NCBI RefSeq assembly: GCF_006345805.1
Contig: NC_043012.1
Coordinates: 23,808,001 to 23,872,000 of the forward strand
Length of the DNA stretch: 64,000 nucleotides
DNA from: Octopus sinensis
Taxonomy: Eukaryota
Direction of reading: 5' to 3'
Below are positions 3,699-58,875 of the stretch, one piece after another. Position numbers and translations under genes: made by a program. The notes beneath the pieces are model-generated. The model did not search any database, had not been told where the DNA came from, and saw only the letters and a list, made by a program, of their open reading frames with translations. The first letter of the stretch is position 1. Each line of letters starts with the position of its first letter.

Positions 3699-4217
3699 AT
3701 GTATATACACACACTATGTACCATCTAACAAAGGGTGAAAACTGTCAACTTTGATATAATATATACACACAGACAGATAGATACACACACACACACACCA
3801 CAACACACACACACATGTACATATATATGTATATATAATCACAACTCATTTTTACAGATGAGCAAACTGGAGCAACATGAAATAAAGTGTCTTGCTTAAG
3901 AAGACAACACACAGCCCAGTCTGGGAATCGAACTCACTACCTTATGATTGTGAGCCTAATGCACCAACCATTGAGCCATGTGCCTTCTCAAGGATCTCTA
4001 CTACTTGGGTATGTATATATATATGTATATATTAAAATTATAAATTAGGGTATCTACGAGATACCACCATGTGAGTATAAATCAGTAAATGGTGGGGTTG
4101 TGTTGACCGCACGTGGAGAAATTATAGGAGAGGAATCCATATATATATATACATACACACACATACATATGGATAAACACACCCTCATATATATATATAT
4201 ATATATATACATATATA

Positions 4218-4407
4218 TTTATTTTATAGAAGGAGCTTCTACAGGACTAGAACTGTTTCATTCAAAAGAATCATCAGCTTCCTGATGATTTCTTTTGAAT
4301 GAAACAGTTCTAGTCCTGTAGAAGCTCCTTCTATAAAATAAATTAATTTACTCTGCTATGTATTGAGTACCTTATTTACTGTGGTTAACCCCGACTCAAC
4401 CCGGGAC

Positions 4408-4410
<3 letters not shown>
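4218..4410. mobile_element. Small foldback PLE-like insertion in (TA)n
   Basis: Inverted arms 4218-4277 and 4282-4342, a one-sided extension to ~4410, and (TA)n on both sides. Contains an HHR. Confidence 0.8.
4276..4326 (+). ncRNA. Type I hammerhead ribozyme
   Basis: Stem I AGCUUC/GAAGCU; core CUGAUGA (4282-4288); weak stem II UUC-UUUU-GAA with a U.U closing pair; GAAA (4301-4304); stem III ACAG/CUGU; GUA cleavage triplet. Confidence 0.75.
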
Positions 4411-4443
<33 letters not shown>

Positions 4444-6652: not shown

Positions 6653-6693
<41 letters not shown>

Positions 6694-6939
6694 ACAATTA
6701 AGGATAACCTCTTAATAAGGAATCTTAACAAGAAATTATCAGGTAGATAGCGTGAAAAACCTCATAAGGGAAAAATTTCGAAAATAATTCTTTCTTATTG
6801 AACATATTAATTTATATATAGAGGGCATTATTATACATACATGCCTCACACTAAGAGGGACATTAGTCATTTCTACCAAAAATTTTACTAATCATACCCA
6901 ATGCAATCTTTCAAAGCAAGACATTTAAAAAATGAATTT

Positions 6940-7003
6940 AGTCTTGTATCACCTGTGATTTCGTACTTACCGCAGAATTGCGACCATACTCATCAGCAAG
7001 ACT
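6940..7003 (-). ncRNA. Type I hammerhead ribozyme (mirror copy)
   Basis: Reverse complement of 7159-7222 with intact CUGAUGA/GAAA/AUA; inner stem II UCGCA-AUUC-UGCGG. Confidence 0.85.
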
Positions 7004-7158
7004 GATTCTGAACATATCATAAATAAACGACCTGTGCCGCCAAAGTCGAACAGCCATCTGCTCTAATCCAACAAAGCCCCATGTGCTTCGTTGGATTAGA
7101 GCAGATGGCTGTTCGACTTTGGCGGCACAGGTCGTTTATTTATGATATGTTCAGAATC

Positions 7159-7222
7159 AGTCTTGCTGATGAGTAAGGTTGCAATTCTGTGGTAAGTACG
7201 AAATCACAGGTGATACAAGACT
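7159..7222 (+). ncRNA. Type I hammerhead ribozyme
   Basis: Stem I AGUCUUG/CAAGACU (7 bp); CUGAUGA 7166-7172; stem II GUA...UAC with an inner hairpin; GAAA 7200-7203; stem III AUCA-CAGG-UGAU; AUA cleavage triplet (7213-7215). Confidence 0.85.
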
Positions 7223-7346
7223 AAATTCATTTTTTAAATGTCTTGCTTTGAAAGATTGCATTGGGTATGATTAGTAAAATTTTTGGTAGAAATGACTAAT
7301 GTCCCTCTTAGCGTGAGGCATGTATGTATAATAATGCCCTCTATAC

Positions 7347-7392
<46 letters not shown>

Positions 7393-26130: not shown

Positions 26131-26420
26131 GTATACTTACACATATGCATACACACAAACATATATGCATATATGCTTTACATGTGCATATATACATATA
26201 TATATATATATATTATGTGAAATAGAAAGATGAATAATCTTGTAGTAGATTAATCAAAAGTTTAACCGATACCTTAGTAGCAAAAATCACAGCAGTAAAC
26301 AGCACGGTTGGAGGTACAACCATATGGTGTTGCAACGTGCGTTGGTGCGGATAATTGAAATTAAACATTATTGGTGAATTGAAGAAATGGAGCTGAACGC
26401 AGATTGAACAGAAATCGTTT

Positions 26421-26513
26421 TATTTCATTCTACACGTGTTTCGAAAGGCACAAATTACCAAAATCCATTGAATAATGGGACCATATTGTGTCTTTCTCTT
26501 CAGGAAGAAAATA
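26421..26513 (-). ncRNA. Type I hammerhead ribozyme (mirror copy)
   Basis: Reverse complement of 27776-27869 with an intact core. Confidence 0.8.
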
Positions 26514-26871
26514 GGAAATCCGTTGGAAAAACAAAAACAGAACAGAGGCGGAGCAAAAACAAATCGAACTATGCTCCTAAGAGCCCATGGCGAAACTGTT
26601 TATCAGGTTATGCTGAGAACCGGTGGCTGAAGAATTTAACGGGTCAGGCATCGGTCAATCATGTGGGTGAGGGTGTGTGGGTGTCTTTGTGACCGAGAAT
26701 AAAGTTCTGACTATTTAAGGAATATTGGATGTTTTATAAGGGGTGAGAAAAAATCTACTTAGAGACGTGTGTGTGTGTATACTGTTCTATATATGTGTGT
26801 GTTGGCGTAGGGGTAGAAAACATTTTTTGTGTACGTGTGTGCGTTTGAGCGTTCGGCTGTCAGTGGCTACT

Positions 26872-27216
26872 TATGTAGGGGCCTCGTCCTCAAGATTGTC
26901 TTTGCATGTCTCCAACCATTACGCAACTTTTCGGGACATGAACAAGCGCCAGACCACGGGACTCAGTAAGCTAATATGGCGACTGAAGGATACGAACTTA
27001 AGCTACAGGCTGGAATGGTCAATTTTGTCGGTGGCCCTCCCATTTGATAGGGGCAGAAGGCAGTGCAACCTTTGTGTCTCCGAACTCTTCCATATTTTGT
27101 TTGCCAGAGGCCGGATGGTAAACGGGCTTTTACAGTCGGCTTTTCGATGCCCCCATTGGCGCGTTACACTTATCTGGCTTTTAAATAGCGTTTATAAAAT
27201 ATACCGGCACCCATAG
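26872..27216 (+). pseudogene. C-terminal GIY-YIG endonuclease fragment of a Penelope-like element
   Basis: YVG...NHYATF...LSKLIWRLK...Y-LEWSIL..A.PF....CNLC..E...N......CPH resembles PLE endonuclease C-termini. The upstream part of ORF 26743 is just inverted-arm sequence; the true fragment starts at the inversion junction. Confidence 0.8.
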
Positions 27217-27775
27217 CCCTTGGTAAAAATTCTGAAATAGCCTTTAAGATATCTACGATTAACCACTGCAAGGGGAATTACTCCTGTAAGACAAACGGGG
27301 CTTGGTTTTTTCACAGCGGGGGGTTTCCTTGACAAGGCAGGCTTAGATGAACACACACACACATAAAACATAATATATATATTTTTTTTTTTTTTTCTGC
27401 CACCCAACGGTTCTCGCGGCAGTAGCCACTGACAGCCGAACGCTCAAACGCACACACGTACACAAAAATGTTTTCTACCCCTACGCCAACACACACATAT
27501 ATAGAACAGTATACACACACCACGTCTCTAAGTAGATTTTTTCTCGCCCCTTATAAAACATCCAATATTCCTTAAATAGTCAGAACTTTATTCTCGGTCA
27601 CAAAGAACACCCACACACCCTCACCCACATGATTGACCGATGCCTGACCCGTTAAATTCTTCAGCCACCGGTTCTCAGCATACTGATAAACAGTTTCGCC
27701 ATGGGCTCTTAGGAGCATAGTTCGATTTGTTTTTGCTCCGCCTCTGTTCTGTTTTTGTTTTTCCAACGGATTTCC

Positions 27776-27869
27776 TATTTTCTTCCTGAAGAGAAAGACA
27801 CAATATGGTCCCATTATTCAATCGGATTTTGGTAATTTGTGCCTTTCGAAACACGTGTAGAATGAAATA
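27776..27869 (+). ncRNA. Type I hammerhead ribozyme with a palindromic, loop-less stem III (dimer-type)
   Basis: Stem I UAUUUUCUUC/GAAUGAAAUA; core CUGAAGA 27786-27792; stem II GAAAGACACAA/UUGUGCCUUUC (10 of 11 pairs) with a large loop; GAAA 27848-27851; stem III ACACGUGU; GUA triplet. Confidence 0.82.
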
Positions 27870-27924
27870 AAACGATTTCTGTTCAATCTGCGTTCAGCTC
27901 CATTTCTTCAATTCACCAATAATG

Positions 27925-27973
<49 letters not shown>

Positions 27974-30515: not shown

Positions 30516-30860
30516 ATAGAATGGTTGTATACTGTCAATCTAACACGAACGTGACAGTAGGGGGGATCACCCCCGCTATTTTAGCCCTAGGAAGCATTGA
30601 CGCCTACTGATGGCTTTGACACATTTTTCCTGTGTCCTTATATACATTTACGAAGGGTATATAAGGACACGAAGGGTATATAAGGACACAGGAAAAATGT
30701 GTCAAAGCCATCAGGAGGCATCGATGCTTCCTAGGGCTAAAACAGCGGTGGTGTACCCCCCCTACTGTCACGTTCGTGTTAGATTGACAGTATACAACCA
30801 TTCTATCGCCCCACCACCGTACATGTCTCTATGAGAGATTTAGAAATTTAGTATTCCTGA
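30516..30860. mobile_element. Foldback element in (TA)n with no visible HHR
   Basis: Inverted arms 30516-30645 and 30676-30806, a central direct duplication cgaagggtatataaggaca x2, and a one-sided extension to ~30860. Confidence 0.8.
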
Positions 30861-41496: not shown

Positions 41497-41569
41497 ATTT
41501 ATTTATTTTATTTTATTTTATCTAGTTTCAGCTCATGAGCTGTGGCCATGCTGGGGCACTGCCATTTAG
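41497..41569 (-). mobile_element. Retroposon 3' tail fused directly to the U6 3' end
   Basis: ctaaatggcagtgccccagcatggccacagctcatgagctgaaactag followed by (ATAAA)n, homologous to the SINE A tail. Confidence 0.8.
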
Positions 41570-41669
41570 AAAATATGGAACATTTCACAAATTTGCGTGC
41601 CATCCTTGCGCAGGGGCCATGCTAATCTTCTCTGTATCATTCCAATTTTAGAATATGTACCGCCGTAGC
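41570..41669 (-). pseudogene. U6: U6 snRNA retrocopy, lacking the first few nt and carrying several substitutions
   Basis: Minus strand gctacggcggtacatattctaaaattggaatgatACAGAGAagattAGCatggcccctgcgcaaggatggcacgcaaatttgtgaaatgttccatatttt matches metazoan U6; changes include CpG transitions; no upstream PSE/TATA recognised. Confidence 0.93.
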
Positions 41670-41923
41670 TAAATAAACAAAAAAAAAAAAACCATACAAA
41701 TATGTTATCTTTGATAATTTAATTGTTTCAGTCATTGAACTGTGACCATGCTGGGGCACTGCTCCGAAGGTTTTAGCTGAAAAAATATCAGCTGCAGTAC
41801 TTATTATCTTAGGTCTGGTACAGTTTCTGATTGGAATCCAAAATTATATATATTTCTTTTGTTTTTGTTAACTTTATTTCATTTCTTGATTTTAGAAGAT
41901 AAAAAAAGAAAACGGAAAAAATT

Positions 41924-55173: not shown

Positions 55174-55269
55174 TGTGTGTGTATTTTAATATTCATAACA
55201 AGATAGAAATACATATCTAGATCATATTATGAATTGAGGGGATCATTGAGCAAAGGTCATATATATATA

Positions 55270-55559
55270 TTAATTGTTATCGCCATATTAATATGGCAGT
55301 CTTATAGATATAAGACTAAAAGCTGTCGCTGGTTAGCTCCATGAGGCCATCGCCTTAAGATAGTTTGTTCGAAGGTTATAATGGACACAGTTTGTGTGTC
55401 AAATAGCTATCTTAAGGCGATGGCCTCATGGAGCTAATCAGCGACAGCTTTTAGTCTTATATCTATAAGACTGCCATATTAATATGGCGATAACAATTAA
55501 TTTCCAGTAACGCTGCCGTAATCTCTTTTAGAGAGACTTAGTAATTTTAATATTTCTAT
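55270..55559. mobile_element. Foldback element in (TA)n with nested palindromes
   Basis: 94-bp inverted arms 55270-55363 and 55407-55500, a one-sided extension to 55559; internal palindromes gccatattaatatggc and agtcttata-ga-tataagact. Confidence 0.85.
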
Positions 55560-58688: not shown

Positions 58689-58875
58689 AGTTCAGCAAAA
58701 TTTAGATTCAGATGAATATGGTACTTAAGTCAAAGGTACCAGAATTTTGTATGGTATTATCCATATAAATTCATGGGGTGATTATAATCAAGAATAAGCA
58801 ACAAGTATATCCGAGTAGCATGAAACAATTGTACCACATTACCTTGGATATACTTGTTGCTTATTCTTGATTATA
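58688..58875. mobile_element. Small foldback element in a TA repeat
   Basis: Inverted arms 58783-58815 and 58843-58875 with a one-sided extension to 58688. Confidence 0.7.

What the first reader, a model, noticed from the sequence alone, without database searches (positions are those of the whole stretch)
26216..27926. Keystone element: GIY-YIG fragment plus twin hammerhead ribozymes in a head-to-head foldback inserted in (TA)n
Seen: ~505-bp inverted arms enclose an endonuclease fragment that begins exactly at the inversion junction (YVG at 26872). Each arm holds a foldable CUGAAGA-type HHR with an 11-bp stem II and palindromic stem III (ACACGUGU). Both 3' ends face outward into (TA)n, and one arm has a ~150-bp longer 3' extension. 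Known: PLE pseudo-LTRs carry HHRs, often dimer-type, and PLEs form inverted insertions. Inference: this is the coding relative of the short foldbacks in this window. Its CxLC...CxH C-terminus and TA targeting may place it in the Hydra clade or an undescribed cephalopod PLE clade.
Basis: partly seen in the sequence, partly recalled or inferred. Interest (0 to 1): 0.75.

Follow-up and report, generated by a model that had tools for sequence, protein, structure and literature searches.

The report
Zinc-less Hydra retroelement, twin-primed insertion
This is a cut-short, back-to-back insertion of a young Penelope-type jumping gene whose family lacks the zinc-binding cysteines proposed to aim such elements at TA repeats yet still sits in them, and whose one-long-one-short pairs of ends likely record both cut DNA strands starting to copy the element's RNA at two fixed sites.

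Summary
In detail: 510-nt arms (98.6%), two hammerhead motifs, a 148-nt one-sided tail, TA flanks. The locus is a 5'-truncated head-to-head copy of a young, abundant Penelope-like element (PLE) family. A whole sister copy (L047) encodes an 895-aa RT plus C-terminal GIY-YIG with Hydra-clade motifs. The window copy has no RT and a substituted catalytic Arg. It is not the parent of the window's other foldbacks (0 of 6 similar).

Two family traits matter. (1) The linker zinc knuckle, intact in 84 of 85 homologs and proposed to drive microsatellite targeting, has lost all four cysteines. RT and endonuclease stay under purifying selection, and 171 of 174 ends lie in (TA)n. (2) Inverted copies pair one tailed with one tail-less end in 69 of 70 classified cases, either arm can be longer, and both arms share source variants (304 vs 23). 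This fits priming of both DNA strands at two RT start sites. The hammerhead covaries like a dimer-type ribozyme, but Rfam misses it and cleavage is untested. The scan noted the long/short rule before on other genomes; one word search found no note on the cysteine-free linker.

The parts
26190..26215 (.). (TA)n target, left flank (part of a longer TA/CA microsatellite field)
26216..26363 (-). 148-nt tail: sequence between the short and the long 3' end; in whole copies it follows the 5' pLTR and precedes the ORF
26364..26871 (-). left arm: 5'-truncated pseudo-LTR, long-type end
26421..26513 (-). type I hammerhead motif, left copy (core 26503-26497, palindromic stem III 26439-26432, predicted cut after 26431)
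   Evidence: activity untested
26869..26871 (.). 3-nt microhomology at the inversion junction
26872..27188 (+). C-terminal part of the GIY-YIG endonuclease (YVG, R-to-H at 26905-26907, CNLC..E, N, CPH; one-base frameshift near 27160; family stop 27186-27188)
27189..27348 (+). 3' UTR between the stop and the pseudo-LTR
27349..27926 (+). right pseudo-LTR, short-type end
27549..27558 (+). TATA-like box in the pseudo-LTR (putative promoter, read from sequence only)
   Evidence: untested
27776..27869 (+). type I hammerhead motif, right copy (core 27786-27792, stem II 27793-27803/27837-27847, stem III palindrome 27851-27858, predicted cut after 27859)
   Evidence: activity untested
27927..27969 (.). 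(TA)n target, right flank

Best explanation
The locus is an RT-less, 5'-truncated, head-to-head insertion of a young Hydra-type Penelope-like retroelement family, likely made when the element's endonuclease nicked both strands of a TA repeat and each nick primed reverse transcription at a different one of two fixed start sites 150 nt apart. Shown: family identity, whole sister copies, the long/short pairing, shared source variants, short junction overlaps, (TA)n flanks and the cysteine-free linker. Inferred: two-strand nicking; one primer per start site; both cDNAs copied from one RNA or from RNAs of one source copy; joining of the two cDNA ends by 1-7-nt microhomology; template RNA that is uncleaved or re-ligated at the hammerhead. 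Also inferred: the family targets (TA)n without a zinc-bound linker, through the endonuclease core or the cysteine-free remnant of the knuckle.
For: L047 has tandem pLTRs and an 899-aa open frame with IRW, SDKT, DIASFYPS, YRDD, AVYQ..YVG, CNLC..E and CPH; its model's top fold hits are telomerase RTs. Pairing: 42 of 42 classified junctions in 61 sequences. Among 40 loci picked separately by an RT hit, 28 junctions were classified: 26 long+short, 1 long+long, and 1 short+short that is long+short on inspection. In 8 of 8 two-armed diverged copies the pair is long+short, read by eye. The long arm reaches further 5' in 22 of 44 and in 14 of 26 pairs. Arms share diagnostic variants 304 vs 23 (93%; shuffled pairs mean 16%, max 37%). 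Clean junction overlaps average 2.7 nt in 21 cases against 0.68 by chance. In vitro, a Poseidon protein cleaves and extends both strands and starts at two sites that bound the tail (PMC11167929). Knuckle: intact in 84 of 85 homologs that reach the endonuclease, absent in all 20 diverged copies read. The lineage nests among knuckle-bearing relatives (99/97). dN/dS is 0.03-0.10 in RT and 0.14 in EN where measurable. TA flanks: 105 of 106 and 66 of 68 ends against 8-9% background.
Against: L216 is a true long+long pair, and 7 junction rows had one unclassified end. PMC11167929 saw no difference in start site between strands, so nothing in vitro yet explains the one-each rule. Shared variants cannot separate one RNA molecule from two RNAs of one source copy or from gene conversion between arms. 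Near-equal 5' ends, expected if one RNA is copied twice, were 8 of 44 in the first sample but 2 of 26 in the second (pooled 10 of 70 vs 3.35 expected). Long arms do not pile up at the short site, so no collision is seen. 17 of 44 junctions were dropped from the microhomology count as unclean, and 6 of the 27 kept have inserts. Loci were the best-scoring hits, not a random sample. The cysteine-free segment is conserved (70-74% identity) and aligns with a relative's knuckle, so the linker may still target DNA without zinc.
Confidence: 0.7

Rival explanations
1. Fold-back self-priming: one cDNA or antisense RNA folds on itself to make the inverted arm, and a staggered resolution leaves the tail on one side (model of Arkhipova et al. 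2013; tail ascribed to endonuclease resolution in Craig et al. 2021).
For: Proposed from palindromic junctions (PMC3846280 passages; PMC8557442). It explains shared variants and one tail. 10 of 70 pairs are near-perfect palindromes, and L090 and L117 have junctions with repeated pieces.
Against: A hairpin has fixed polarity, so the tailed arm should be always the longer or always the shorter; observed 22:22 and 14:12. A short-start cDNA cannot template a tail. The stagger would have to be about 150 nt here and about 55-115 nt in other families. The two ends match RT start sites in vitro for another PLE.
Confidence: 0.12
2. Two separate RNAs, held together by the palindromic hammerhead stem III or by two proteins, are each copied from one nick; an asymmetric complex sets which start site each uses.
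For: Stem III stays self-complementary in all 19 copies, with a two-sided change, and two copies co-fold through it. Overlapping long arms such as L031 need no strand displacement under this model. It is a variant of the best explanation, differing in template number.
Against: Arms share source variants in 93% of informative sites, which requires both RNAs to come from one locus. It gives no natural reason for one long plus one short end. Hammerhead mutants did not affect insertion in vitro.
Confidence: 0.13
3. The family is non-autonomous for targeting or integration: knuckle-bearing Hydra families of the same genome move it, so the cysteine loss says nothing about targeting.
For: At least two knuckle-bearing families with young copies exist in this genome. 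Trans-mobilisation by PLEs is reported (PMC3846280).
Against: RT dN/dS is 0.03-0.10 and EN amino-acid identity stays at 61-83% while synonymous sites saturate. Nine open frames of 850 aa or more were found among the loci held. The pLTR and tail show no similarity to the other families' foldbacks in the window.
Confidence: 0.05

Closest known systems
Hydra clade of C-terminal EN+ Penelope-like elements, incl. Hydra-1_Obim (Craig et al. 2021, PMC8557442; sections 3, 6, 11, 12, 15 and supplement passages read)
   Same: Single ORF with RT then GIY-YIG; RW(K) and DKT motifs; no CCHH; CxxC and CxH around E and N; hammerhead in the pLTR; (TA)n insertions; inverted 5'-truncated copy.
   Different: The CxC-X5-C linker has no cysteines; two Ser/Asn-rich disordered inserts; unit 3.6 kb, not under 3 kb; tail about 150 nt, not 30-40; long stem II. 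By eye it is another family than Hydra-1_Obim (2507 bp, different hammerhead).
PAc, Poseidon element of Anolis carolinensis (Frangieh et al. 2024, PMC11167929; parts 1-2 of 4 read)
   Same: Two internal RT start sites that bound the tail, downstream of the hammerhead; both strands cut and extended; hammerhead cleavage not needed for insertion.
   Different: Another clade; the start sites lie in the ORF there and in the 5' UTR here; the paper reports no one-site-per-strand rule.
Adineta vaga Penelope families with N-rich inserts (Arkhipova et al. 2013, PMC3846280; passages read)
   Same: Inverted pLTR with a tail on one of them; in-frame Asn-rich insert between RT and EN.
   Different: The passages read describe no loss of linker cysteines and favour antisense self-priming; those families are low-copy.
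Dimer-type PLE hammerheads (Cervera and de la Pena 2014, PMC4209133; passages read)
   Same: Type I core, short palindromic helix III, G10.1-C11.1, predicted dimer activity.
   Different: Stem II is 10-12 bp with a 33-nt loop; the two copies here lie on opposite strands.
L1 twin priming (recalled; not read here)
   Same: Two nicks prime cDNAs that join by microhomology into an inversion.
   Different: In L1 the two pieces are non-overlapping parts of one RNA and the second primer lands at random; here both arms copy the same region from two fixed sites.

Membership tests
EN+ Penelope-like elements | Telomerase-related RT and GIY-YIG endonuclease in one ORF | tested here: met
   L047 ORF; top fold hits are TERT; 110 homologs. 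The window copy keeps only the EN end.
EN+ Penelope-like elements | pLTRs in tandem or inverted, with a one-sided tail | tested here: met
Hydra clade | C-terminal EN without the CCHH motif | tested here: met
   one Cys only between AVY and YVG; definition
Hydra clade | RWK and DKT motifs | tested here: met
   IRWL (K replaced, as in P0016) and SDKT
Hydra clade | CxxC and CxH flanking the conserved E and N | tested here: met
   CNLC..E, N, CPH
Hydra clade | CxC-X5-C linker motif | tested here: not met
   none of the four cysteines in L047 or 20 diverged copies, not hidden in another frame; intact in 84 of 85 homologs
Hydra clade | Insertion into (TA)n | tested here: met
   171 of 174 classified ends; background 8-9%
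Hydra clade | Generally under 3 kb | tested here: not met
   unit 3.62 kb
Hydra clade | RT groups with the published Hydra families in a tree with other PLE clades | not tested
   Published sequences and outgroups were not in the trees; the lineage nests among unnamed homologs with Hydra motifs, and published Hydra RT motifs match by eye.
Hammerhead ribozyme, type I, dimer-type | Conserved core and three stems | tested here: met
   core present in all 19 copies except one G-to-A change beside it in L169's other arm; 90.4% of cells paired, 5 pairs with two-sided change, slid controls 36-50%
Hammerhead ribozyme, type I, dimer-type | Match to an Rfam hammerhead model | tested here: not met
Hammerhead ribozyme, type I, dimer-type | Self-cleavage | not testable with these tools
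   needs an in vitro assay
Naiad / Chlamys | N-terminal EN, no canonical hammerhead | tested here: not met
   EN is C-terminal and a hammerhead motif is present
Penelope/Poseidon, Neptune, Nematis | CCHH motif in EN, DKG motif | tested here: not met

The most novel reading that the evidence does not exclude
An octopod Hydra-type lineage has turned its linker zinc knuckle into a cysteine-free peptide and still targets (TA)n, so zinc binding there is not what aims PLEs at microsatellites. Its insertions arise when one RNA is copied twice, by two RT active sites at start sites 150 nt apart, each primed by one strand of the cut, which needs the second RT to displace the first cDNA.
Probability: 0.35. 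Interest if true: 0.72.

Novelty: new variant of a known kind. Interest (0 to 1): 0.5.

Why it matters
How PLEs build inverted pLTRs with a one-sided tail, and what aims them at microsatellites, are named as open in PMC8557442. This family makes both testable. It offers whole natural copies, a 150-nt tail that separates the two start sites cleanly, 70 scored insertions that constrain the mechanism, and a natural cysteine-free linker that tests the zinc-finger targeting hypothesis. The locus itself is an ordinary dead stub. Fragments of the lineage are also mis-named as host proteins in public annotation.

Tried and rejected
Pfam: no family for the fragment, the whole protein or 12 aligned members, nor for 13 other window ORFs. 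Rfam: no hammerhead. Single-strand folding: not better than shuffles.

Sequencing runs: no RNA holder listed. Contigs of four runs only guessed to be RNA covered the element with no joint listed; I draw nothing on expression or splicing from them. Homodimer prediction of residues 1-483: no answer, score 0.13, evidence neither way.

The first microhomology count was spoiled by variants near junctions and redone. The first all-family scan for symmetric ends (none found) was biased, because its filter removed symmetric cases. Redone with two positive controls: of 124 units in 121 sequences, 87 tailed (about half this family), 17 both flush, 16 with no second TA run and 4 with 13-39 nt. 14 of the 17 are one family whose short end contains a masked TA run and shows tails when mapped; 3 are unrelated repeats not shown to be PLEs.

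A shared motif before both start sites: weak, post hoc (103 of 5000 shuffles) and absent in 4 other families. Conserved structure in the tail: no two-sided change in 37 pairs. Region search for the cysteine-free EN among long proteins: 0 of 139 candidates. Hammerhead cut as a copy end: 1 of 140 5' ends within 10 nt. The careful 65-row tree did not finish (one search is the quick tree); one search is a careful 22-row tree. The script stopped before scoring P0115 and P0130.

Not found in print: searches listed no paper on a strict long/short rule or a cysteine-free Hydra linker. The library lacks most subscription papers, including Arkhipova 2006 and Evgen'ev and Arkhipova 2005, which I know only through citations. 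bioRxiv 10.64898/2026.07.22.740005 (part 1 of 5) and PMC6431247 (passages) added nothing used.

Full report
1. Observation. The inverted arms are 26364-26871 and 27421-27926, 510 nt at 98.6%. The left arm continues 148 nt to 26216 and both ends meet (TA)n. Each arm holds CUGAAGA, a stem II of 10 pairs plus an A-C mismatch, GAA, the palindrome ACACGUGU and A, followed by a stem I partner. Rfam finds no hammerhead and folding z-scores are near zero. Across 19 copies of the family and its subfamilies, 90.4% of cells pair and 5 pairs change on both sides, while slid controls pair 36-50%. Stem III stays self-complementary in every copy (ACGU, AUGU or AUAU centre; two copies are 2 nt shorter). As a monomer that stem costs +2.4 kcal/mol and as a duplex it gains -10.3; two copies co-fold through it. 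This matches the dimer-type PLE hammerheads of PMC4209133 (passages). Cleavage is untested.

2. The family. The coding part found 1419 candidates in the own genome; the 40 scored gave 42 full-length matches at 98-100%. An RT piece found 7181 candidates, 150 scored at 85-100%. These are lower-bound searches, not copy numbers. The window copy differs from others by a median 1.1% in substitutions, so the burst is recent. L047 is a whole copy: pLTR, tail, an 899-aa open frame (895 from the first Met), 3' UTR and pLTR, with a 3.62-kb unit. Nine frames of 850 aa or more occur among the loci held. The protein has IRW, SDKT, the RT core, AVYQ..YVG, R..H, CNLC..E, N and CPH, and lacks CCHH. These are the Hydra features of PMC8557442 section 11. 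Its model is confident outside two disordered inserts (485-559, 631-765) and its best fold matches are telomerase RTs. The window copy keeps only the EN end. It has His for the conserved Arg (1 of 52 copies) and a one-base frameshift (2 of 56; possibly an assembly error). Hydra-1_Obim in the paper's supplement is, by eye, a different family. Two close relatives are named as Octopus proteins by their sources.

3. Other foldbacks in the window. None of six shows similarity to the whole element, and the one at 4217-4411 matches another family at 90-95% whose protein keeps the knuckle. Those at 4217, 6804, 30516, 55269 and 58783 each have one flush and one tailed end. They are ends of separate families with the same layout, not offspring of this element.

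4. The cysteine-free linker. Of 85 homologs that reach the endonuclease, 84 have the four-cysteine knuckle and one has three. L047 has none of the four, in any frame. The same holds for all 20 diverged copies read and for a copy at 54% identity (L176). In a careful RT tree the lineage is one branch (100/100) beside knuckle-bearing P0002 and P0003 (99/97), so the loss is likely derived; the tree has no outgroup. RT has dN/dS 0.03-0.10, EN 0.14 in the one unsaturated pair, and the Ser/Asn insert 0.44-0.73. A 23-residue segment before the GIY strand keeps 70-74% identity. It aligns in register with the knuckle of a near relative, P0207 (CFLKRNC against RFLSSNS; 9-36 of 2000 shuffles for three lineage members, no signal for P0113 or against two other knuckles). 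It is therefore likely a knuckle that lost its zinc ligands. The linker was hypothesised to mediate microsatellite bias (Arkhipova 2006 known only through that citation), yet 105 of 106 and 66 of 68 classified ends lie in (TA)n against 8-9% background. Zinc binding there is thus likely dispensable; the peptide may not be.

5. The pairing rule. Copies end at two sites, 70 and about 217 nt downstream of the predicted hammerhead cut. In 61 sequences there were 47 head-to-head junction rows: 42 long+short, none long+long or short+short, 5 with an unclassified end. In 40 loci chosen separately by RT there were 30 junctions: 26 long+short, one true long+long (L216), one scored short+short that has its tail (L230), and two with an unclassified end. 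That is 69 of 70 classified, where free choice of site would give about half. Eight of 8 two-armed diverged copies agree, read by eye, as do other families with tails of about 55-115 nt. Either arm may reach further (22:22, 14:12), and in L031 both overlap deep in the ORF. The arms share diagnostic variants 304 to 23 over 70 pairs, against 16% for shuffled pairs. Clean junctions overlap by 2.7 nt on average against 0.68 (21 of 44; 6 with inserts, 17 dropped). Five of 140 arms run past a second hammerhead and one ends at a cut site, so the template is likely uncleaved or re-ligated, as in vitro.

6. Mechanism. The likeliest path (inferred): the protein binds its RNA near the tail and nicks both strands of (TA)n. 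One nick primes at the short site and the other at the long site. Both cDNAs truncate and anneal by a few bases. One RNA with two sites gives the one-each rule naturally but needs strand displacement. Two RNAs from one locus fit the variants equally well but do not explain the rule. Fold-back predicts a fixed polarity that is not seen. PMC11167929 shows two start sites and two-strand extension for a Poseidon element but no strand bias. At this locus a read-through RNA would pair its two arms, so the hammerheads would likely be buried in double-stranded RNA (inference; also noted in e1-10311581).

7. Known and new. Inverted pLTRs with a one-sided tail, hammerheads and (TA)n targeting are published. 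My searches found no paper on the strict rule or on a cysteine-free Hydra linker, within a library that lacks key subscription papers. The scan's notes hold the long/short rule in 23 findings from at least 13 genomes; they are unchecked and not independent support. One word search for the linker loss returned nothing, as did a sequence search. The element works like Hydra and sits among Hydra-type homologs, but fails one listed motif and the length, so I file it as a new variant, not a plain member. Interest 0.5.

Noticed in passing
window 6690-7358: Foldback of another family with its own CUGAUGA hammerheads (-6996, +7166) and a 114-nt tail on the left arm; 2178 candidates in the genome. Several copies continue past the tail into further units (retrozyme-like tandem pieces); no coding parent established.
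   Followed up: partly
window 4217-4411: Short foldback with a 68-nt tail that matches a knuckle-bearing Hydra-type family (L171, L174, L177) at 90-95%.
   Followed up: yes
window 30516-30859, 55269-55559, 58690-58875: Three more foldbacks, each flush with (TA)n on one side and tailed (53, 58, 94 nt) on the other; families not traced.
   Followed up: partly
window 41569-41672 (-): U6 snRNA match, 100 bits, with a substitution-bearing 5' stem and a near-repeated stretch on both sides; may be a retrocopy.
   Followed up: no
L216:5509-9315: The one long+long pair; its junction holds a short duplicated, folded-back piece.
   Followed up: partly
L215, L224, L047: Arms longer than one unit, running through two pLTRs without a break: template was a tandem read-through or a circle.
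   Followed up: partly
arm 5' ends: 15 of 140 arms stop 3400-3670 nt upstream of the short site, just short of the upstream hammerhead cut, and only 5 go beyond; may mark a cleaved 5' end or a barrier. The sample is biased to long arms.
   Followed up: no
P0112, P0114, P0262, P0011: Fragments of these elements carry host-gene names in public annotation (for example 'probable serine/threonine-protein kinase dyrk1', 'GATA zinc finger domain-containing protein 14-like').
   Followed up: no
L090:3576-6585, L117:4823-4874: Junctions with extra inversions or a triple 24-nt repeat, suggesting repeated template jumps.
   Followed up: no
L035:5413-8820, L089:1092-1482: Elements with about 100-nt terminal inverted repeats flush with (TA)n on both sides; possibly DNA transposons.
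   Followed up: no
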